Source: Candidatus Altimarinota bacterium (GTDB lineage: Bacteria > Patescibacteriota > Gracilibacteria > BD1-5 > UBA2023). Taken from it: 50,908 nt of DNA. Of the stretch, positions 26,884 to 50,908 are shown one piece after another (positions within the stretch are counted from its first letter, which is position 1; the number at the start of each line of letters is the position of its first letter). The notes beneath the pieces are model-generated. The model did no database searches and was not told where the DNA came from. It worked only from the letters and a program-made list of their open reading frames with translations. The stretch covers positions 1-50,908 of the forward strand of contig JANPGO010000011.1 in assembly GCA_031423995.1 (NCBI GenBank), in the 5' to 3' direction. Position numbers and translations under genes: made by a program.

Positions 26884-28185
26884 ATGATCGATATCAAAAT
26901 TCTCCGTACCAATCCCGAACTCGTCCGAAAAGCGATTCACGATAAAGTGACCAAATGAGTCGATCTCGATGAAGTGATCCGTCTCGACCTCGCTCGCGTG
27001 TCTCTCGGGCAGGAGCTCGATGCTCTCAGGGCCCGACGTAATGATCTCTCGGCGAGCATGGGGAAAGGAAAACCTGAGCCTCATATTCTCGAAGAAGCGA
27101 AATCCATCAAAGAAAAAATCCAATCCCTCGAACCAGAATTTGAGAAAATAGAAGGAGAATTCCTCGCGCTCTACAAGAAAATCCCAAATATCCCAACAGC
27201 CGATACCCCGATCGGACTCACCGAAGAGGAGAATGTCGTCGTGAAACAGTGGGGCACTATTCGACAGTTCGACTTCCCAGTCCGGAATCATGCGGAGATC
27301 GCCGAGATCCGAGGCTGGATCGATAAGGAACGTGCCGCGAATGTGGCAGGATCTCGTTTCGCATACCTGAAGGGTGACCTCGTGAAGCTCCAATTCGCCC
27401 TCATCCAGTGGGTGATGGACACACTCGGGGATTCTGCTGTCCTCGACCAGGTGATCGCCGAAAACGGTCTCACAGTCTCGAATAAGCCATTCACTCCCGT
27501 CCTCCCTCCCTACATGATCAAGACCGCTCCCTATGATGCGATGGATCGCCTCGAGCCTCGTGAAGAACGATACAAAATAGAATGAGAAGATCTCTGGCTC
27601 CAGTGATCTGCTGAGCATGTCCTCGGATCGATGCATGCAGGAGAGATATTTGCAGAATCAGAAATGCCCGTCCGCTACCTCGGATATGCGACGAGCTTCC
27701 GTGGTGAGGCGGGAACCTATGGGAAAGATATGGAAGGGATTATCCGTATGCACCAGTTCGACAAGCTCGAGATGGAGTCATTCTCTATAGCTGAGACCTC
27801 ACATGATGAGCACCTTCTCTTTGCTGGACTTCAGGAGTATCTCATGCAAGCCCTCGAGATCCCGTATCAGAAGCTCCAGAAGTGTACCTTCGACATCGGG
27901 AAACCGAATGCAAAGGGTTCTGATATCGAGGCATGGCTTCCTGGACAGGATAAATACCGTGAGACTCACACTGCCGACTATATGACTGACTATCAGGCTC
28001 GTCGCCTCCAGACACGAGTTCGTCGGACTTCAGGCGATGTAGAACTCATACATACCAATGACGCGACCGCCTTCGCTTGTGGACGTGCTCTCGTAGCTAT
28101 TATGGAGAACTATCAGAATGCAGATGCGACGATCACTGTCCCGAAAGTGCTGAGGAATTATATAGGAGGGAAGGAGAGGATCTAA
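26884..28185 (+). CDS. serS: Seryl-tRNA synthetase
   Basis: N-terminal coiled-coil arm plus class II motifs (SAEHVLGSMH, FRGEAG..GKDMEGIIRMHQF, TNDATAFACGRAL). Three track ORFs are joined by TGAs in frame 1. Confidence 0.95.
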
Positions 28186-28202
28186 TAACCTAAAATTTGT
28201 TT

Positions 28203-28922
28203 ATGGGCTGAGATGAGCGAAATTTACCATGCTTTTGTGGTAAAATAAATCAAAAAACTTGAAATCCACTCAAAAGAAAAGACTGTTATTTTAAACCTGG
28301 CAACATAAATACTTGTTCTAGATTTCTTATAGATAATAAAAGTAAATTTGTTTTATGAATTCAACAACATCATGATTCTGTTATTTCAGAAGCTTCACTT
28401 CTAATCAATGAACTGAAAGATAGGTCAGAGTTTATCCGATCCAAATTTATATTAGTATTATCAGTACTAGATACATTTACAGATCTTTGGGCGTATTTCT
28501 CTGGTATAGAGAAAGAGTCTGAGTCTTTTGTCTGGAATGATTGGTTTGGTAGATTTATTTTTCAGGCAACTAATATTCGTTATAATAATTGGTCAGAAAA
28601 ATGTTGAATTAATAAAGTTGATTGAACTTATTTTTATAACCTTCGATGCTCATTAGTTCATTTTTATTGAGTTGATCCTAAAAGTAAGATTGTATTACTA
28701 AATGAATCTCCTAATATTTTACTGAATAGACTCAAGAAAGATTGATCTTACTGACTTGATCCGCAGGTTCTTCTGCTGATTATTATAGATGCTTCAAAGC
28801 TTATGCTTGATGAAATGAATAATAGGATAAAGTCTAATAATCTGGAATATTTATTATCTTTAAAGAAACTTTATTTTATGGTGAAAGAACGATGATGAAA
28901 TAGACTTGAAATTACCATTTAG
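28203..28922 (+). CDS. Hypothetical A+T-rich protein with an Rx4H (HEPN-like) motif (239 aa)
   Basis: Frame 3 was verified from ATG 28203 to TAG 28920 with eight TGAs. FYNLRCSLVHFYG is the only recognisable motif. Confidence 0.55.
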
Positions 28923-29006
28923 TTTATTACCTATTCTATTTTTTAAATATTTAAATTGAGCAAGTTAATTTTGACAAATATATAATTCATCGTACATCCA
29001 TATCTC

Positions 29007-30017
29007 ATGAACACGGTTGTTCGTCCACATTTTTCTGGAATTCTCGATCAATATGCTAGTCCGATTCTCGCTGCACGGAGTCGATCGCTTTTTGAAGTCG
29101 ATGCAGTAAAGGCACGACTTGCGAGAATCCATCCATGAGAACATGAGAGTTTGAAGAGAAGATATGATGATATGATTGCACGTTGACCTGATCGCTTTGA
29201 TGTCAAACCTACACGGATGCCTCATTTTGATGAATTTTCTGAAGAGGTTCCGAATTTCCAAGAGGTGATCATGGAGATAAGACGTAGACTTGCTCTAACA
29301 ATAGATTCGAAGGACTCTCTCGAACTTGAGCCTATACTCCTCCTCGGTCCACCAGGAATTGGGAAGACTCACTTCGTTCGTGAGATTGCGGAGCTCATTG
29401 GTACAGGATATTGATTCATCACTATGAGCTCGCTTAGTGCGGGATGGGTACTCTCGGGTGCGAGTAGTCAGTGGAAAGGCGCACGTCCAGGGAAAGTATT
29501 TGAGACGCTGGTCGATGGTGAGTATATCAACCCAGTTATGGTCATCGATGAGATCGATAAGGCAAGAGGTGGACATGCCTATGATCCACTCGGTGCTCTC
29601 TATAGTCTTCTCGAACATGATACAGCAGAGAGATTTATTGATGAATTTGCCGATGTGCCTATTGATGCCAGTCGAATGATCTGGTTTGCTACTGCGAATG
29701 ATGAGCGGAGTATTCCTGATCCTATACTGAGCCGTATGTATGCTTTTAATATTTGACTGACACGAGAACATGCTCGAGTTATTGCTGAACGACTTTACAA
29801 GAAGCTCATAAAACAGTATGATTGGGGGAAAAAATTCGAAAGAGAACCATTGGGAGATGCACTCGATGTACTTTCCCAGACTGCTCCCCGAGAGATGCGT
29901 CGAGCACTGAGGACTGCTTTCGGAAATGCTGCACTTGATAAGAGATGAAAGATAGAAGTTGCAGATTTACCAAAATCTCAATCTTGAAAAAAATGACTAC
30001 TCGGGTTTATAAATTAA
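29007..30017 (+). CDS. Lon-type AAA+ ATPase without a protease domain
   Basis: Walker A LLLGPPGIGKTH and Walker B VMVIDEIDK. DPLGALYSLLE..RFIDEF..PIDASRMIWFATAN..IPDPILSRM is colinear with the Lon AAA module. Ends at TAA 30015. Confidence 0.8.
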
Positions 30018-30093
30018 TAATATATAGTGTTATCATTTTGAGATCGTTTTTTCTCATATGTGGATATACTAGACTGAATTAGTTCTATATTTG

Positions 30094-31248
30094 ATGAACA
30101 TCCTGAGAAACATCTCCCTTCTTTCGTGGTTCAATTTCTGCCTCGATTTCCGTATCTACAATGCGATCGCGATTCTCTATTTCGCTCAGGTGACAGGCTC
30201 ATATGCACTCGCACTTGGGGTATTCTCTGTGTCCACGATCGCATCCTCCATATTCGAAGTACCGACAGGAGTATTCTCCGATAGGATCGGAAGGAGATGG
30301 ACGCTTCTCATCGGACAGATGAGCACGATCGGATCGATCTTCTTCTATGCACTCTGAGGGACTTGGATGATACTCATGATCGGTGCAGTGCTCGAGTGAC
30401 TCGCGAGATCACTCTACAGTGGGAACAACACCGCACTTCTCTATGATACGCTCCGAGAGCTCGGCAAGGAAGGTGAATACAGTCACTACGAATGACGAGT
30501 GAGCTCGATGTTCCAGTTCGCTCTCGCGATCTCAGCGCTCATCGGAACAGAGATGCTCGGATTCGCGTCATTCCAGATACTCTTCTTGCTCTCACTCATC
30601 CCACAGCTGATCGGTCTCGGTATCGGGCTTGCCCTGATCGAGCCCAGAACCCATGATACCAGGCAGGAAGCCAATATCTTCTCCCACCTCTCCGAAGCGA
30701 TCACGAGATTTCGTACCAATATGCGGCTCAGGAAACTGAGTCTTGCCTCGATCACGAGCTATGCTATCAATGAGCCAATTCATGACTTCTATCCGACCTT
30801 CATGGCAACACTCTGGCCTGCCTGGGCGATCCCACTCGCGAAGACGCTGAGTCATATGTTCGCGGCGACAGGATTTCGTATCGCGGGGAGAATAGTCGAG
30901 AAATACGGTGCAGATCGGACACTGAAGTGGGAGAATCGCATCAACTATATCGTCTCGACACTCATCATCGCCTTCCCGAGTATTGTGACTCCGCTCATCC
31001 GTTCGGTCACATCACTTGGCTTCGGTATTGGGACAGTTGCCGAGAAGTCACTCTTCCAGAGTGAGTTCTCGGATAGACAGCGTGCGACGATGGACTCACT
31101 CAATTCCCTCGCGGGGAATCTCGCCTATTCGATCTTCGCGACCCTCCTCTGACTCCTCGCGGATAGTGTCTGAATCTATACAGCCCTCCTCATCGCACAG
31201 ATCCTCTCGATCAGTGGAGTGATACTCTATTGACGAGTGTTGAGATAA
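30094..31248 (+). CDS. MFS transporter (paralog 2)
   Basis: FEVPTGVFSDRIGRR motif. ORFs 30091..30357 and 30499..31152 are joined in frame 1. Confidence 0.8.
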
Positions 31249-31337
31249 TCATATTATGAATTTTTCTACGAACATCATGTTGATCTCACGAATTCCTGTG
31301 TCGAAATAGGTTAAACGGATAATATTTACCTAACATA

Positions 31338-32504
31338 ATGCCTCTCCAAAGAATCAAATTCCTCTTCTCATTTTCAGGATTTCTTTCGGCTCTGTATTTC
31401 TCCATCCCGATCTGGATGGTATTCTTGACAGTAGAGCAACATTTCTCCGTCGAGACAGCGATCCAACTCTCGATGCTCGAATGACTCGTGATCGCCGTAT
31501 TCGAGGTGTGGAGTGGTTCATGGTCAGATCGATTCGGAAGGAGGAAGATATTTGCTCTCGGATGAATGTTTCAGATACTCGCGACGACAATCTATGTATT
31601 TGGGCATGGATTACCGATTTTTCTCTTCTCAGCTATCTGTGCTGGGATCGGTGGAGCGATGATGAGTGGGAATATCGAGGCTATCGTCCATGATCGACTC
31701 ACGAAGCTCGGAGATGAAGCTCAGTTCTCGAAGATGCAGAGTCAGAGCTATATGTGGCGTTTTATTGGGCGGACATTTGGAGCTATTGCGGGAGGATATC
31801 TCTTTTCTTTGAGTCCGATTTTTCCCTATATGGGGAATCTTGCTATTTTTACACTCTATACAACGACTATTTTTCTCTTTCCGAAAGACGAGCAGGAGAA
31901 ATCACACTCAAAGAGTGACTTCGAGCATATACGAATCGGGTTCTCTGATATCTGGATGAAGAAATCCATCTTCTATAAGCTATTACTTATCATCCTTGCT
32001 GCATCTGTCGGGAATATTTACTGGTTCACGTATCAAGAATATTTCCGCTTGTTGTGACTTCCTGTAGCGAGTTTCGGATGGTTCTATGCTCTGACATCTT
32101 CCATGAGTGCACTCTCTGCTTGGCTCTTATGACGATCGAGAGAGAAGGGTATTTCTGAGAGGATTTTGTTCAGGATCTTTCTCTTGTTTCTAGCTAGCTC
32201 ATCGGTGTTCTTGGCATTTTCTCATGAACTATGGAGTCTTGTCGGGATCGTGACTCTTTCATGTATGTCTGGATGGGTGATGACTCTTGGGAATACACTC
32301 ATCCTCGCTCATGTTGCCCCGACTCATAAGTCATTCGCCCTTTCTGCCTTTTCCTTTGCTCAAACAATGGGATATGTGATATGTACCTATACTGCAGGAT
32401 TTTTTATCGAACGATATGGTTTGTGACTTGTTTACTCTTTTCTCTCGGTGAGTATCCTTTCAGGTTTTATACTCTGGATAGTGTATTCATGGAGCCGAAA
32501 GTAG
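31338..32504 (+). CDS. MFS transporter (paralog 3)
   Basis: FEVWSGSWSDRFGRR motif. ORFs 31566..32057 and 32166..32426 are joined in frame 3 to TAG 32502. Confidence 0.8.
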
Positions 32505-33782: not shown

Positions 33783-34343
33783 TTATCTCTTGGTTCCTCA
33801 TCTTTCGAGATCGAGGAGCCATTTTTTGCGTTCGAGCCCTCAACCATATCCGATAAGGTCACCTGATGCACCGATCACACGATGACAGGGAATGATGATG
33901 ACTATGGGATTCTTATTATTCGCTCAGCCGATCGCGCGGACTGCCTTCGGGTTTCATGCGAGTATTGCTTCTTCCTTGTAGCTTCTTGTTTCACCGTATG
34001 GGATTTTCTGAAGAGCTTTCCATGACTGTAATTGGAAGTCTGTCCCTACGGGCTCATGGGTAAGAGTGAAGGATTTTCTCGTTCCAGCGAAGTATTCTCC
34101 GAGTTGGAGTTCGGTTTCTTTGAGGATCTTGTTGTTACCGTCATCGCGAAGCATGAAGCGATCAAGTCAGTAAACAGAATCCTTTTTTTGTCACTGGTTT
34201 GCCACGTCGCTATAGCTCCTCGCAATGTCGGAAATCTTTTTCTCGAGTCCTTTTGAATCTGCGAACTCGAGGAGGATGAGGCGTGTCTCACTCGCGACAG
34301 CGATGAGGTCACCGAGAGGGGAGGGGATAGTATGAGAGTGCAT
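33783..34343 (-). CDS. ogt: Methylated-DNA--protein-cysteine methyltransferase
   Basis: IPCHRVIG active site, YGETRSY, NP.AVRAIG. The frame was verified from ATG 34343 through TGAs to TAA 33783. Confidence 0.85.
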
Positions 34344-35303: not shown

Positions 35304-37211
35304 ATGACTGTAACTGCTGATAACACACATTACCTGGAACAAGCACAAGATTTGCCGGAATGATTGGATGTAATCCCAACTTTTTTATCATTCTGAGATG
35401 CAAAAGTAACTGTTTCTAAGTATGCATCTATCATAGGAGGTACAGTTGCAACTCAACACCAGAATGGTGTTAATGATCTTAGAAATGCTCTAGAATCTGC
35501 TACAACAGCGCCACTTCCTGTACCACAATCTGGAATCCTTGATGAACTTGATAGAATTGTATCATTGGCTCAAAGAATCAACTGGACAAACAGCCCATGA
35601 ACATATACCCTATTGAAACCTGAAGTTACAGAAATATTTTGATTAATAAATGAATTCTGGAGGGAAATAATGACAAGAAGAGATGATCAAAATTTTATCG
35701 AATGTCTAAGGGGAAAAAACGGAATGAATTTTATCGCTTTGATGAATAATTTCTGACGGTATCTTGCAGTGACGGAAAATGAAGATCATGCATATTTATT
35801 CTTTCGATGATCAATTGATCTTGCTCGTTATCTCCGAGCAAGACAATTTTGTTTTGATGCATACGTGAATATTCTAACCTGTTTACCCAAACGATTCCAT
35901 CCAAGAAATACTGATCAACACATAGATGCATTAGAAGAATTTGCTCATGATGCGAATACTTGATTCTATTCAAAAGAGCCAGAATTTATTCAGACAGATG
36001 ATTGATCAAAAGCATTCCAGAGAAAAGATGCTGCTGAGAGAAGAATGAAGTGACTCAGAAATATACATTCAATAGAGATACTTCGGTTGCTCTCTTTCTT
36101 CAGAGTTGATTCAGAATTTGATATATTTAGTGAAGATTTTAGTCGTAATGTTGAAGCATTTGAGGATGTTAAAGCAACATTTACGTCATCTTTTAGGAGT
36201 CCTGATAGTCCATCCAATTGACTTATATTGGCCGATGGCAGAGTCCTTCCAGTGAATATCGGGTGAACTTTCGATATACATATGGCAGAATCACTCGCTT
36301 CTATAGAATTACAAATTGCCAAAGCAATACAATTAGCAAAGGGTAGAAATAACTTACCTGCTCTATTATCAAAATATGTATCTCATTCTTTCTGGACGAA
36401 TTATCAATCAGAAGATATATCAACGCGGACGATCATTTTTTCAAAGCCATTTGTACAAGTATTTTCTGAGCGATATTTCATGCAGGCTCTTGCTCATGCA
36501 GTTTCATTTAGTGCTGACGGGGATTCAGTTAGAGAATTCAATATTTTCAAAGAAGAAGTTATATATATGATAGTACAGGCTATTGCATGATATCCTGACG
36601 CTAGTGTATGAGATTCCAATGCCGCGGTATGAAATACACTTTATGATTATTTTACACTACATAAAACTGATCCAGCTGTCTTACTTTTTTTAGGCAACGT
36701 ATTACCTTGAATAAGAAGTGCAGCTGAATATTTCAGGACGTATCTAGTGAAGAATGCGAGAAGAATAGTATCAGATGCTATCACAAAGATTGTGGGTGCT
36801 CGATGATGGACAATTACTGTACATGGTATACCACTTATTATTTCATGAAGAATTCAATCTTGATCATACCAAAGAATTCGTATGGATGAAGATTATTGAC
36901 TCGAGATAAATATTTCATGACCAGAAAAACTTAATAAAATAGTCTCTAACTGTCTTGTACAGCCAGCACTTACGAGATGGATCCTCAATCTAATGGCAGA
37001 AGAACATAAGGCTCTGCTTAATAAGGCAATTAAACATTCAAAAAGTATTGCTAAAACAATAGATATTGCTTGTCAATGAGCTAATCGATTGCTAGCCCAT
37101 CTTGATTTTCCATGAAGTGAAAAATTGAGGAAAACAATTTTAGCAATTTCAACGAATGTTTGAGCATTATCAAGATGAGAACCACCAGTGAGAGGCGATA
37201 TTGATGAATAA
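35304..37211 (+). CDS. Hypothetical A+T-rich orphan protein (635 aa)
   Basis: Frame 3 is continuous from ATG 35304 through ORF 36282..36590 to TAA 37209 with many TGAs. 35304-36284 was checked codon by codon; the rest was checked against the sequence lines. No motif recognised. Confidence 0.65.
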
Positions 37212-47312: not shown

Positions 47313-50300
47313 ATGCGTTTTCTCGATAAATATACACAATCATTCGTACAGCCACGTCCGTGGAGCACTGCTTGGATCGCACTCCAATGGTGAAATCTTC
47401 TTTTCTGGAAGAAGCTCACGGCAATTCTTACTCTTTTTTGTCTTCTTGCATCGTATTTTCCGATTCAAGCATATTTCTCTCGATGACTCGAGTACCTTCC
47501 CTATGCAGATGCCCTCTACGAGAAGAAGATTGTCGATGTTCCATACACAAGGAACGATATGCTCGACTATGTGAGCCAAGATGAAGCACTTCGCATAGCG
47601 ATCAATATTGGCTGATGACTGGATTTTGACTGCCATGGCTCTCGTCACCTCTCACCGAATACAGAGAATATCTACGATTGTGCCTATGCTGGATATGCAG
47701 AGAAGAAGGGAATTATTTCAGCATCCTATACACCAACTGATTATACGAGTCGTATCGCTGCAGTTCGTTCACTCGTCGTCGCATCATGACTTCAGCAATC
47801 ATCACATGGAATTCCCTATGTTGATGTCCAAAGTGAGACTGGGTATATTGCGCGTGCCTATGATGTCGGCTGTCTCCCGAGTTCGAATTATTTCTATCCG
47901 GATACCTATATCTCTCGTGGTGAGATGCTCAAGCTCTCTGACTGTATCAATACGGCGATTGCTTCATCCGTCTCCATGACGATCCCGAAGAGTCATGTGA
48001 TTGCTTCATCCTCGAATCCAATACTCGTACAAAATCAGCCACCTCTCCCTGTGGTATCTATTTCTGTTCTTTCGGGAGAGAATTCAGTATCAGATCCTCA
48101 AAACGTTGTTCCAGTTCCTCCTCATTCAAATACTGGTATAATTCAAACAGGATCAACTCTAGAATCTGGAGCACTTGCTCTTCAGGGTCAAACAATCGTG
48201 ACACGGGAAGTTATTCGTGAAAAAATCGTGGAAGCAACAGGATCGAATATCATCCTTCCACAGGCATCAAATACTCTTCTCGGCTATGACAGCAATGGTA
48301 CGCTCATCACGGTCGGTATTGGATCAGGAGTAGAAATCATCGGAGGGAAAATACAGGCACATCCACTCGTCATCAATACTTCCGAGACATTCAGTGCAGC
48401 TCCGAGTACTCCACCACAGATGAATACTGTAGTTCCTCCATCCAATCTCCTCTACCCATCAACACCACTTCTTCAGTTCCAGGGAATTCCTGGTGGAGGA
48501 GGTTCGAGCTCTATCACTTCTGTCTTCGGTAGAAATGGAATCGTTACCGCAACAGCAGGGGACTATACAACCGATCTTGTCACTGAGGGATCACGTCTCT
48601 ACTTCACGGACCTGAGAGCACAGAATGCACTTTCCGGAAGTATCCTGGCTCTGAACACTGCTATCACGACACTTTCTGGGGCGATCGGAGTGGCTTCATA
48701 TTCAGGATTTCTCTCACTCACCTCTGATGTTTCGAACCTCTCAGGAACGGTGATGAGCCTTGGGAATTCTCTCATAACTTTTTCTGGTGCATTCGGAAAC
48801 TTCGGAAGTACTCTCACAGTTCTCTCGGGTACACTCAATATCCTCAGCGCGGATGTTGGAAGCCTTTCGGGCATACTGAGTAACACCAATTCTGGACTCG
48901 TTTCTCTGGGGAATCTCATGAATACACTTTCCGGAACTCTTGCAACGCGTATAGGACTCTCGGATCTCTCTGCAACAGGAGGAATCACGTATAATGTATT
49001 AAGTTGACTCTTTGGCTGGAATGGTACTACCTCGAATATTGCCGAGTGATTAAATCTTTACTATACTCAGGGACGATTTGATAGTGCTTTCTCAGCGAAA
49101 TCAACGAGCAATCTCACAGAAGGATCCAATCTCTACTTCACTGACCTCAGAGCTCAGAATGCACTTTCTGGATCAATCGGAAGTCTGACAAATAATTTTA
49201 CGACACTTTCTGGAGTGGTTGCGACCATAGGAAGTACACTCGATACCGTTTCTGGAAGTATTCTCAATTTTTCTTGATCGCTTTCCGTTCTTGCTTCACA
49301 AGTTGCGTCTCTCTCTGGAAGTATCAGTTCAGTTTCTGGAAGTCTCGATCTCCTCTCGAATACGGTAACGACTCTTTCAGGGGCAGTATGAGTCATAAAT
49401 AGCGGGCTTATCGCAGCGAATGGAAATATTTCTACACTCTTTTCTGGTCTTTCGAGTGCAACAGGAACTCTTGCAACCATTGCAGGAAATGTTGCGACAC
49501 TTTCTGGAGTTCTCTCGGCACAAAGCGCAAGTATCACTGCCCTCAACTCAGATATTGGAGTCTTAAGTGGCAGCATAGCAACACTTTCGGGAATGGTGAT
49601 AGGAATCAATGCTACTCTCGCAACTCTCTCGGGCACTCTCGCAACAACGAATACAAATCTCTCTGGTCTTTCAAGTACAGTCAGTATACTTTCTGGAACT
49701 GTTACTGCGCAAGGCAATACTCTTATCAATCTCGGATTAAATCTTGCTACCGCAACAGGAACAATAAATGTCCTTTCTGGAACTGTTTCCACTCTTTCAA
49801 CTGATCTCAATACACTTTCGGGTTCAGTAAATGCTCTTTCAGGACTGACTTCCAGTATTGCTTCGAATCTCAACACAACGAATTCCAACCTCGCAACAGC
49901 AACAGGAAATATCCTCTCTCTCCAGAACAACCTCGCGACAACAACGGGATCATTAAATACGGTTATTGTGAACCTCGCAACCGCAACAGGAAATATCGCT
50001 ACATTTTCTGGTTCTCTTGGTATCCTTTCTGGCAATCTTGCAACAACGAACTCCACTCTCAATACTCTCTCAGGTGTTATCGCAGGAAAGATTGGACTTG
50101 CTGACCTCTCAGCAATTGGGCCTATTGCCTATAATAATCTCACAGGGAATTTCTCATTCACTTCTGGATCTGATGGTCAGGTTCTGATGATGTCAGGTAG
50201 CCAATTTGTCTGGAAAAATCCAACAACAGTCGGTTCATCAGTCACGAGTATATTTGGTCGAACAGGTGATATTCTCGGGCAAATAGGGGATTATACAACG

Positions 50301-50908
50301 GCACTTGTGACAGAATCAGGATCCAATCTCTACTTCACAGATCTGAGAGCACAGAATGCTCTTTCTGGAAGTATCGGAAGTCTTTCTGGAACGCTCGCAT
50401 CACTTTCAGGTACGGTTAATACACTTTCTGGGATGATCAATCTCATGAATGCGAACTATACAACTCTCACATTCTCAGTTGCAGGAATTGGAAATAGTCA
50501 GATCGCACTTCAAAATAATTTTAATGCGCTTTCTTGATCTGTTGCTTCGCTCTCAGGAGTCGTTCTCTGAATCGGGAATAACCTTACAATTCTTACCGCT
50601 GACGTCAATACACTTTCATGAAGGGTGAATACGCTTTCTGGCGTAGTGGATAGTGCAAATACCAACATCGCTACTCTTTTCACCAACCTCGCAACCGCTA
50701 CTGGAAACATCGCTACACTCTCAGGAAATCTCAACACCACCAACACAAATCTTACCAATCTCACAACAAGCTTCAACACTCTTTCCGGAAATGTAGTCAC
50801 CCTCTCAGGAGTCGTTGCTACCAAGATCGGACTCACGAGCCTCTCAGTCAACTGACCACTCACATACAATAATGGTACCGGACTCTTCGGCATCAATATA
50901 GCCAACTC
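47313..50908 (+). CDS. Giant repetitive surface/fibre protein (3' end outside window)
   Basis: Frame 3 runs from ATG 47313 (47313-47927 verified codon by codon) through ORFs 47925..49007, 49593..50537 and 50625..50855. It has an N-terminal signal anchor, an SLH-like segment (FYPDTYISRGEMLKL) and then heptad xxLSGxx repeats. Confidence 0.75.

What the first reader, a model, noticed from the sequence alone, without database searches (positions are those of the whole stretch)
28203..30017. A+T-rich Rx4H (HEPN-like) orphan gene followed by a protease-less Lon-type AAA+ ATPase: a candidate two-gene defence or toxin module
Directly after serS lies a visibly A+T-rich 239-codon gene whose only recognisable feature is NLRCSLVHF. 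This fits the Rx4-6H signature of HEPN RNases, including AbiD/AbiF-type abortive-infection proteins. It still uses TGA=Gly eight times, so it is adapted to this code rather than freshly imported from a standard-code donor. Eighty-five nt downstream on the same strand is a 336-aa protein colinear with the Lon AAA+ module (Walker A, Walker B, sensor region). That protein lacks both the Lon N-domain and the protease domain. A pairing of a HEPN-like effector with an AAA+ partner is typical of defence islands. I do not recognise this exact pair as a named system.
Basis: inference. Interest (0 to 1): 0.65.

Follow-up and report, generated by a model that had tools for sequence, protein, structure and literature searches.

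The report
Two unrelated genes, not a module
Both genes are real, but they are neighbours by accident: the first belongs to a small uncharacterised zinc-knuckle family with an invariant Arg-x4-His pair that elsewhere sits in restriction-modification loci, and the second is a protease-less Lon-type ATPase acquired from Burkholderiales and recoded to the TGA=Gly code.

Summary
ORF A (28203-28922, 239 aa, 28.6% GC) and ORF B (29007-30017, 336 aa) are real genes read with TGA=Gly. The two-gene-module reading fails.

B belongs to a ~333-aa Lon-AAA+ family with no N-domain or protease. All 80 best genome hits are Burkholderiales. There it is a solitary chromosomal gene with no conserved partner. B nests inside that family, so it is a horizontal acquisition, now at 44% GC with TGA at conserved Gly sites.

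A is not an orphan. It has 21 homologues, with invariant R148/H153 and a SEC-C-type Cys4 zinc knuckle. A related contig carries the A orthologue directly after serS (serS 87.5% identical, A 32%) and has no B.

Relatives of A lie in or next to type I R-M operons, a Dam-like methylase or an RT-like gene. This favours a single-gene defence or toxin role. HEPN membership is unproven. A confident AlphaFold model (pLDDT 91) matches nothing in the PDB or BFVD, and no HEPN profile reaches threshold. A also matches the probable Rugutis protein only over the SEC-C motif.

The parts
26884..28185 (+). serS (seryl-tRNA synthetase). It is the conserved left anchor, and ORF A follows 17 nt downstream.
   Evidence: The table-25 translation is 433 aa. 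It is 87.5% identical to the serS of the related contig L095, where an A orthologue also follows directly.
28203..28922 (+). ORF A: 239 aa, AT-rich. It belongs to a small uncharacterised family with an N-terminal SEC-C-type zinc knuckle and an all-alpha core carrying an invariant R-x4-H.
   Evidence: The gene has 10 TGA codons (67% of its Gly codons) and GC3 of 0.19.
28218..28316 (+). SEC-C-like Cys4 zinc knuckle of A (aa 6-38: RNLPCFCG...KDCY...NTC). It has a 7-residue insertion relative to the family consensus CPCGSGKKYKKCY.
   Evidence: C10, C12, C28, N36 and C38 are invariant in the 14-member long subfamily. Pfam SEC-C is hit by 11/27 members. The family profile hits the SecA zinc domain at 1.4e-5.
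28644..28661 (+). R148-C-S-L-V-H153, the Rx4H dyad of A.
   Evidence: R148 and H153 are invariant in all 27 family members. E63, R79, F118, N124 and M201 are at least 90% conserved. In the model the dyad lies in helix 141-154.
28923..29006 (.). 84-nt AT-rich spacer between A and B.
   Evidence: The consensus scan found no promoter-like or terminator-like site here, so co-transcription is neither shown nor excluded.
29007..30017 (+). ORF B: 336-aa stand-alone Lon-type AAA+ ATPase with no Lon N-domain and no S16 protease. It was acquired horizontally from Burkholiales-type Betaproteobacteria (Burkholderiales).
   Evidence: Walker A, the pore-loop Trp, Walker B, sensor 1, the Arg finger and the sensor-2 region all match the family consensus.
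29346..29369 (+). Walker A of B (GPPGIGKT, aa 114-121).
   Evidence: alignment and alignment to Lon.
29535..29552 (+). Walker B of B (VMVIDE, aa 177-182).
   Evidence: The segment is invariant across 30 Burkholderiales homologues.
30091..32504 (+). Two tandem MFS-like transporter ORFs. Together with B they make up the variable stretch between A and ogt.
   Evidence: They are absent from the syntenic relative L095, which has acetyltransferase, PspC and YjdM genes there instead.
33783..34343 (-). ogt (methylated-DNA-protein-cysteine methyltransferase), the right anchor of the variable stretch.
   Evidence: It is 52% identical to the ogt of L095. The L095 gene carries Pfam Methyltransf_1N and DNA_binding_1.

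Best explanation
The two genes are independent and sit side by side in a variable stretch between serS and ogt.

Gene A is a fast-evolving, AT-rich member of a small family found in TGA-recoded and other small-genome lineages. The family has an N-terminal SEC-C-type Cys4 zinc knuckle. Behind it is an all-alpha core of about 190 aa, with no detectable structural relative, that carries an invariant Arg-x4-His dyad.

Shorter standard-code relatives of A are embedded in type I restriction-modification operons. On that basis I infer that A acts alone as a defence or toxin-type effector. The most likely chemistry is a metal-independent, HEPN-like RNase that uses R148/H153, with the zinc knuckle tethering or sensing a partner such as the ribosome or a phage protein.

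Gene B is a complete, apparently active Lon-clade AAA+ unfoldase module with no protease. It was acquired horizontally from Burkholderiales, where it is a solitary conserved chromosomal gene. It has since been ameliorated to the recipient's GC content and to the TGA=Gly code.

Shown: gene reality, family membership, conserved residues, gene contexts, absence of the pair elsewhere, and the donor clade of B. Inferred: RNase activity of A, a defence role for A, and what B does.
For: Independence of the two genes:
- The related contig L095 has the order dnaX, a 235-aa gene, serS, the A orthologue, then an acetyltransferase, and further on ogt. It has no B.
- Six other A-family loci lack any Lon-like AAA+.
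- The B family has no conserved neighbour across 85 Burkholderiales loci. It follows gspD-E-F in Rubrivivax, Sphaerotilus and a metagenome contig, and sits between grx4-like and CBS/TlyC-like genes in Variovorax.

Origin of B:
- The top 120 protein hits are 59-64% identical proteins of about 333 aa, and those that carry a taxon name are Burkholderiales.
- All 80 best GTDB genome loci are Burkholderiales or Betaproteobacteria, apart from a few MAGs with broader or different labels.
- A neighbour-joining tree places B inside that family, as sister to the Comamonadaceae/Sphaerotilaceae clade.
- B has 44% GC and carries TGA at invariant Gly sites.
- Its AAA+ motifs are intact.

The A family:
- HMMER finds 21 homologues.
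- R148 and H153 are invariant, and the Cys4 ligands are invariant in the long subfamily.
- The SEC-C assignment rests.
- The long and short subfamilies are homologous: hhalign probability 99.2%, E = 6.6e-20.
- The short subfamily lies inside type I R-M loci, together with HEPN_AbiU2, RhuM and Fic genes.
- Long-subfamily members lie next to an hsdM, a Dam-like methylase and an RT-like gene.
- Family genes are always AT-rich, at 27-32% GC.
- serS is 87.5% identical between the two syntenic genomes, while A is only 32% identical.
Against: - No HEPN profile reaches threshold. The best result is HEPN_Cthe2314 at E = 0.051 in 1 of 27 members, although that hit does span the dyad.
- The AlphaFold model has pLDDT 91 but finds nothing in the PDB (best E = 1.6) or in BFVD (best E = 0.2).
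- PADLOC hits come only through the SEC-C motif.
- The defence role is inferred from the gene neighbourhoods of a handful of contigs.
- In the window and in L095, A sits in a housekeeping neighbourhood right after serS and may be co-transcribed with it, since no terminator was found.
- The tree for B is neighbour-joining with midpoint rooting only.
- No function is known for any B-family member.
Confidence: 0.55

Rival explanations
1. A (a HEPN-like effector) and B (an AAA+ partner) form a two-gene defence or toxin module. A weaker version is that they were newly recruited as a pair only in this lineage.
For: They are adjacent on the same strand with an 84-nt spacer. The scan found no terminator and no strong promoter between them. 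Both genes appear intact and functional.
Against: The pair is found only in this organism. The syntenic relative L095 has A without B. No other A-family locus has a Lon-like AAA+. The B family is solitary in 85 Burkholderiales loci. The two genes differ sharply in composition and origin: GC3 is 0.19 for A and 0.33 for B, and TGA makes up 67% versus 28% of Gly codons.
Confidence: 0.06
2. A is not a nuclease or a defence gene. It would be a non-catalytic zinc-knuckle helical protein, for example a ribosome-binding or SecB-type adaptor or a regulator, kept downstream of serS as part of a housekeeping operon. The conserved Arg and His would then be structural or ligand-binding residues.
For: The gene order serS-A, with a 17-20 nt gap, is kept in two genomes. 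No terminator lies after serS. No HEPN or nuclease fold or profile was detected. SEC-C motifs are best known as SecB- and ribosome-binding zinc domains, and the family profile hits the SecA zinc domain.
Against: A is only 32% identical between the two genomes while serS is 87.5% identical. This is unlike a housekeeping partner. Other family members are not next to serS but in R-M, methylase or RT contexts. The short subfamily lacks the SEC-C motif but keeps R-x4-H. The low GC relative to the host is typical of mobile or defence genes.
Confidence: 0.25
3. A is a distant homologue of the lactococcal single-gene abortive-infection protein Rugutis. Rugutis has an N-terminal SEC-C motif and a novel fold, and is triggered by the phage large terminase.
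For: The overall architecture is the same, and both give a confident AlphaFold model with no PDB match (PMC11381338, PMC13064643). The knuckle sequences are similar: RNLPCFCG in A and RNEKCFCG in the Lactococcus protein.
Against: The 359-aa SEC-C protein on Lactococcus plasmid pLLF72B is the probable Rugutis. It aligns with the A-family profile over only the 21-residue SEC-C motif (hhalign probability 56%). It has no R-x4-H region in register, and it is 120 aa longer.
Confidence: 0.05

Closest known systems
HEPN superfamily RNases, including Abi-type effectors (AbiD/AbiF, AbiU2, RnlA/LsoA-type), as defined by Anantharaman et al. 2013
   Same: A is predicted to be all-alpha. It has a strictly conserved R-x4-H with small or polar residues after the Arg. 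Its relatives are inserted in type I R-M operons next to other HEPN, Fic and RhuM genes, as many HEPN Abi genes are. Additional conserved Glu and Arg residues are present.
   Different: No HEPN Pfam model reaches threshold. Foldseek finds no HEPN structure. The core is about 190 aa with at least eight helices and a small beta hairpin, not a minimal four-helix bundle. The dyad sits in the C-terminal half of its helix in the model. An N-terminal SEC-C zinc knuckle is present.
Rugutis (Lactococcus plasmid single-gene Abi-like system; PMC11381338, PMC12184496)
   Same: Both have an N-terminal SEC-C motif followed by a domain whose confident AlphaFold model has no PDB match. Both are single genes on mobile or variable DNA.
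   Different: No sequence similarity was detected beyond the 21-residue knuckle. Rugutis is 359 aa and A is 239 aa. The Rugutis body lacks the conserved R-x4-H block.
LonA protease (TIGR00763 / endopeptidase La)
   Same: B matches the Lon AAA+ module. It has Walker A and B, an aromatic pore loop, sensor 1, an Arg finger, sensor 2 and the helical lid, and it aligns to Lon residues of about 266-519.
   Different: B has no Lon N-terminal substrate-binding domain and no S16 Ser-Lys protease domain, since the protein ends after the lid. Its pore-loop aromatic is Trp where the aligned Lon has Tyr (RRTYIGA). It belongs to a separate family of about 333 aa that appears restricted to Burkholderiales and has no curated model.

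Membership tests
HEPN superfamily | Conserved Rx4-6H motif | tested here: met
   R148 and H153 are invariant in the 27 aligned family members. They are also conserved in the independently aligned short subfamily.
HEPN superfamily | Recognition by a HEPN sequence profile (Pfam HEPN clan families) | tested here: not met
   A itself gives no hit at E <= 10. Among the 27 members, only HEPN_Cthe2314 at E = 0.051 (14 bits, cutoff 27.1) and HEPN_RnaseLS at E = 0.2 appear, each in one member.
HEPN superfamily | HEPN four-helix up-and-down bundle fold | tested here: inconclusive
HEPN superfamily | Metal-independent RNase activity dependent on the Arg and His | not testable with these tools
   This needs expression of a recoded gene and R148A/H153A mutants.
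AbiD/AbiF (Abi_2, PF07751) | Match to the Abi_2 profile | tested here: not met
   No Abi_2 hit appears for A or for any of the 27 members. PADLOC gives none either.
Rugutis | N-terminal SEC-C motif | tested here: met
   Pfam SEC-C is hit by 11/27 members (best 9.5e-7). The family profile hits the SecA zinc domain at 1.4e-5. A keeps the four invariant Cys but carries a 7-residue insertion.
Rugutis | Homology of the effector body | tested here: not met
   hhalign of the A3 profile against the 359-aa Lactococcus pLLF72B SEC-C protein aligns only 21 columns, all in the knuckle. I inferred that this protein is Rugutis from its size, annotation and origin. I did not check the locus tag.
LonA protease | Lon-type AAA+ module | tested here: met
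   TIGR00763 positions 355-517 are matched at E = 1.8e-30. PDB Lon chains match at E of about 5e-25. The motifs are intact.
LonA protease | N-terminal LON substrate-binding domain and C-terminal S16 protease domain | tested here: not met
   No Pfam LON_substr_bdg or Lon_C hit was found. The TIGR00763 score is 106 bits against a cutoff of 608. The protein ends at residue 336, after the lid.
Conserved two-gene defence module (A + B) | Co-occurrence of the two genes in other genomes | tested here: not met
   There are no B-like genes at seven other A-family loci, including the syntenic L095. There are no A-like genes next to B homologues in 85 loci.
Known PADLOC defence systems | Profile match of either protein to a system component | tested here: not met
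   A has no hit. B has only weak P-loop-level hits (DolB 2.8e-4, IetA 9.6e-4) over short stretches. Hits by A-family members are confined to the SEC-C motif.

The most novel reading that the evidence does not exclude
The A family is a new fold class of nuclease-type defence or toxin effector tethered by a zinc knuckle. It would be confined to small-genome lineages: TGA=Gly-recoded CPR bacteria, other Patescibacteria, and a MAG labelled Woesearchaeota. It would share the R-x4-H chemistry of HEPN without sharing the HEPN fold. Its recurrent position directly after serS in recoded genomes might reflect a link to tRNA or translation.

Separately, the Burkholderiales origin of B could mark the host or prey lineage of this episymbiont.
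Probability: 0.15. Interest if true: 0.65.

Novelty: new variant of a known kind. Interest (0 to 1): 0.4.

Why it matters
This analysis removes a false candidate defence system and replaces it with two cleaner leads.

1. Gene A defines a small, uncharacterised protein family. It has a confident predicted structure with no known relative, an invariant catalytic-looking Arg/His dyad and a SEC-C zinc knuckle. Its relatives sit in restriction-modification loci of ultra-small bacteria and one MAG labelled as archaeal. Little is known experimentally about defence in these lineages.

2. Gene B is a well-documented case of a gene moving from Burkholderiales into a genome with an altered genetic code. 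It has been fully adapted there, with TGA now sitting at invariant glycine positions. This is useful for studying amelioration after code change and may hint at host association.

Neither lead is surprising enough to overturn current views.

Tried and rejected
- **Table-25 translations refused.** Structure prediction and the search of protein representatives would not accept them. I used the database copy P0001 instead, which has Trp at the 10 TGA sites.
- **Single-sequence AlphaFold of A** was useless, with pLDDT 41. Adding the 27-sequence alignment raised it to 91.
- **The word-indexed protein search** made A look like an orphan. Only the exhaustive HMMER search found the family.
- **Metagenome scans.** With four close sequences it returned one locus.
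- **Two viral-contig scans** for the family found nothing.
- **Plasmid tblastn** with A and with P0138 gave only SEC-C-motif hits. A Bacillus SEC-C protein whose match seemed to extend beyond the motif turned out to be unrelated and has no R-x4-H.
- **Rugutis homology** was tested and rejected beyond the knuckle.
- **The weak DUF7632 hit** in A (E = 0.005) appears in only 1 of 27 members, so I treat it as chance.
- **Flanking repeats around B** showed only short matches consistent with chance, and no insertion signature.
- **No tRNA or Rfam element** lies in the window.
- **Literature searches** for a characterised protease-less Lon AAA+ found nothing relevant.

Full report
**1. Checking the observation**

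The window reads TGA as a sense codon, so I translated with table 25 in Python. ORF A is 28203-28922: 239 codons, 28.6% GC against 43.2% for the window, with NLRCSLVHF at aa 146-154. ORF B is 29007-30017, 336 aa, 44% GC.

Two small corrections apply. A has 10 in-frame TGA codons, not 8. The A-B spacer is 84 nt, not 85.

A is a real gene. An open frame of 239 codons at its composition has P of about 1e-7, and the other five frames hold 8-23 TAA/TAG stops. Its ATG start is supported by alignment with an orthologue: MGGDERNLPCFCG in A against MRGEDRNDACPCG in L095.

TGA=Gly is shown directly. TGA codons 60 and 136 of B align with Gly in 30/30 and 26/30 homologues. In A-family members from recoded genomes, TGA falls on the Gly positions of the SEC-C consensus CPCGSGKKYKKC.

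A public 2209-bp contig from another assembly (L004) is identical to window 27942-30150. The serS-A-B junctions are therefore not an artefact of this assembly.

**2. Gene B**

B hits Pfam AAA (1.5e-12). It hits the lon equivalog TIGR00763 only over model positions 355-517 (1.8e-30; 106 bits against a cutoff of 608). No Lon N-domain or protease domain is detected.

Against the PDB it aligns to Lon residues of about 266-519, at E of about 5e-25. Walker A (GPPGIGKT), a pore-loop aromatic (SSQWKG), Walker B (VMVIDEID), sensor 1 (TAN), the Arg finger (ILSRM) and the sensor-2 region (PREMRRA) all agree with the consensus of its family. The assignment of these roles follows the standard Lon and AAA+ motif order and is inference.

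B has thousands of homologues. The best 120 are proteins of about 333 aa at 59-64% identity. Where they carry a taxon name it is Burkholderiales: Rubrivivax, Ideonella, Azohydromonas, Sphaerotilus.

In one genome per GTDB species, all 80 best loci are Burkholderiales or Betaproteobacteria, apart from a few MAGs with broader or different labels. No code-25 genome appears among them.

A neighbour-joining tree puts B on a long branch inside this family. It is sister to the Comamonadaceae/Sphaerotilaceae clade, with other Burkholiales-type (Burkholderiales) lineages further out.

In Rubrivivax, Sphaerotilus and a metagenome contig, the gene stands alone just after the type II secretion genes gspD-E-F. 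In Variovorax it lies between a grx4-like gene and a CBS/TlyC-like gene. Across 85 loci no neighbour is conserved, and none resembles A.

B is therefore a horizontally acquired copy of a solitary, conserved chromosomal gene of Burkholderiales. It is now at the recipient's GC content and uses TGA for 28% of its glycines. No member of this family appears to have been characterised.

**3. Gene A**

The profile libraries see nothing in A itself. The word-indexed search found only its own database copy. An exhaustive HMMER search of 1.84 billion representatives found 21 homologues of 87-260 aa.

The 27-sequence alignment has R148 and H153 invariant. E63, R79, F118, N124 and M201 are at least 90% conserved. 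In the 14-member long subfamily, C10, C12, C28, N36 and C38 are also invariant.

This N-terminal element is a SEC-C motif. Pfam SEC-C is hit by 11/27 members, and the family profile hits the SecA zinc domain at 1.4e-5. A carries a 7-residue insertion there but keeps all four cysteines.

With the alignment, AlphaFold gives a confident model, mostly helical with a small hairpin (pLDDT 91.1, pTM 0.87). Foldseek finds no match in the PDB (best E = 1.6) or in BFVD (best E = 0.2).

No HEPN profile reaches threshold. One member gives HEPN_Cthe2314 at E = 0.051 over a stretch that includes its R-x4-H, and another gives HEPN_RnaseLS at E = 0.2. PADLOC and PHROGs give nothing beyond the SEC-C motif.

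The motif is therefore real and functionally constrained, but HEPN membership is unproven.

**4. Context of the A family**

A related 55.9-kb contig (L095) has this order: dnaX, a 235-aa gene, serS, the A orthologue 20 nt downstream, an acetyltransferase, PspC, and further on ogt. It has no B and no MFS genes.

serS is 87.5% identical between the two genomes, dnaX and ogt are 52% identical, and A is only 32% identical. Either A evolves very fast or different alleles are swapped in at this site.

The stretch between A and ogt differs completely between the two genomes. B therefore lies in a variable region.

Other long-subfamily members lie immediately upstream of an hsdM N-terminus (L097), downstream of a Dam-like methylase (L098), and beside an RT-like gene (L087).

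A shorter subfamily has no SEC-C motif, uses the standard code, and comes from Patescibacteria and a MAG labelled Woesearchaeota. It is homologous to the long subfamily (hhalign probability 99.2%, E = 6.6e-20). These genes lie inside type I R-M operons next to HEPN_AbiU2, Fic and RhuM genes.

Family genes are always AT-rich, at 27-32% GC, even in contigs of 38% GC. No member was found on viral contigs.

**5. Mechanism**

The pair is not a module.

For A, my best-supported reading is a single-gene defence or toxin effector. The invariant Arg/His dyad would be catalytic, with HEPN-like, metal-independent RNA cleavage. The zinc knuckle would mediate binding to a partner.

This rests on conservation and on guilt by association. 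I put it at roughly 35-40% for the nuclease chemistry, and somewhat higher for a conflict-related role.

The main rival, at about 25%, is a non-catalytic adaptor or regulator kept in the serS transcription unit. No terminator separates serS, A and B in a simple scan.

For B, the intact motifs argue for an active hexameric unfoldase. Its substrate and role are unknown in the donor clade as well.

**6. Comparison with known systems**

By motif and context, the closest known kind is the HEPN/Abi class. By architecture, the closest is Rugutis. Rugutis is a lactococcal single-gene Abi-like protein with an N-terminal SEC-C motif and an AlphaFold fold with no PDB match, and it is triggered by the phage c2 large terminase (PMC11381338, PMC12184496, PMC13064643).

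I located a 359-aa SEC-C protein on a Lactococcus dairy plasmid from Ireland (pLLF72B) that is very probably Rugutis. It aligns to the A-family profile only over the 21-residue knuckle. A is therefore not a detectable Rugutis homologue.

B is a Lon AAA+ module but not a Lon protease.

**7. Verdict**

The Rx4H motif is significant, A is plausibly conflict-related, and B is a protease-less Lon AAA+. The headline two-gene module is not supported.
- Novelty is moderate. A defines an uncharacterised family with a possibly new fold, and B is a clean inter-phylum transfer into a recoded genome.
- Interest is 0.4.

Noticed in passing
window 35304-37211 (+): A 635-aa ORF at 35% GC, with GC3 of 0.21 and 24 in-frame TGA codons (63% of its Gly codons). 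It has the same atypical codon usage as ORF A and may be another lineage-specific or mobile gene.
   Followed up: no
window 30091-31248 and 31338-32504 (+): Two tandem MFS-like transporter ORFs lie directly after B. They are absent from the syntenic relative L095, so the whole serS-to-ogt interval is a variable region.
   Followed up: partly
P0003 (ENA protein, 534 aa): A B-family protein in which the AAA+ core is duplicated internally. It is either a tandem duplication or an assembly artefact.
   Followed up: no
L001 8001-9011, L002 8001-9005, L005 6001-7008: In Rubrivivax, Sphaerotilus and a metagenome contig, the B-family gene sits immediately downstream of the type II secretion genes gspD-E-F. 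In Variovorax it is instead between grx4-like and CBS/TlyC-like genes.
   Followed up: partly
L088 1536-10328: This NCBI MAG contig is labelled Woesearchaeota. It carries a type I R-M operon (hsdM ... hsdR) interrupted by HEPN_AbiU2, an A-like 194-aa gene, an unknown 390-aa gene and a Bro-N/Fic gene. A terminase fragment lies at the contig start.
   Followed up: no
L087 774-2645 (-): An RT-like 313-aa ORF (faint RVT_1) and a 279-aa ORF lie next to an A-family gene on a TGA-recoded contig. This may be a retron- or DRT-type defence pair.
   Followed up: no
L100 3986-5065 (NZ_PP589797.1 36225-37304): A 359-aa SEC-C protein on Lactococcus plasmid pLLF72B, probably the Rugutis antiphage protein. 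It lies next to an Fst type I toxin gene and IS elements. It shares only the zinc knuckle with the A family.
   Followed up: yes
window 1-50908: No tRNA gene and no Rfam family at gathering threshold were found anywhere in the 50.9-kb window.
   Followed up: no
window 47313-50908 (+): A very long ORF (over 1198 aa, Gly-rich with 130 Gly) runs off the right end of the window.
   Followed up: no
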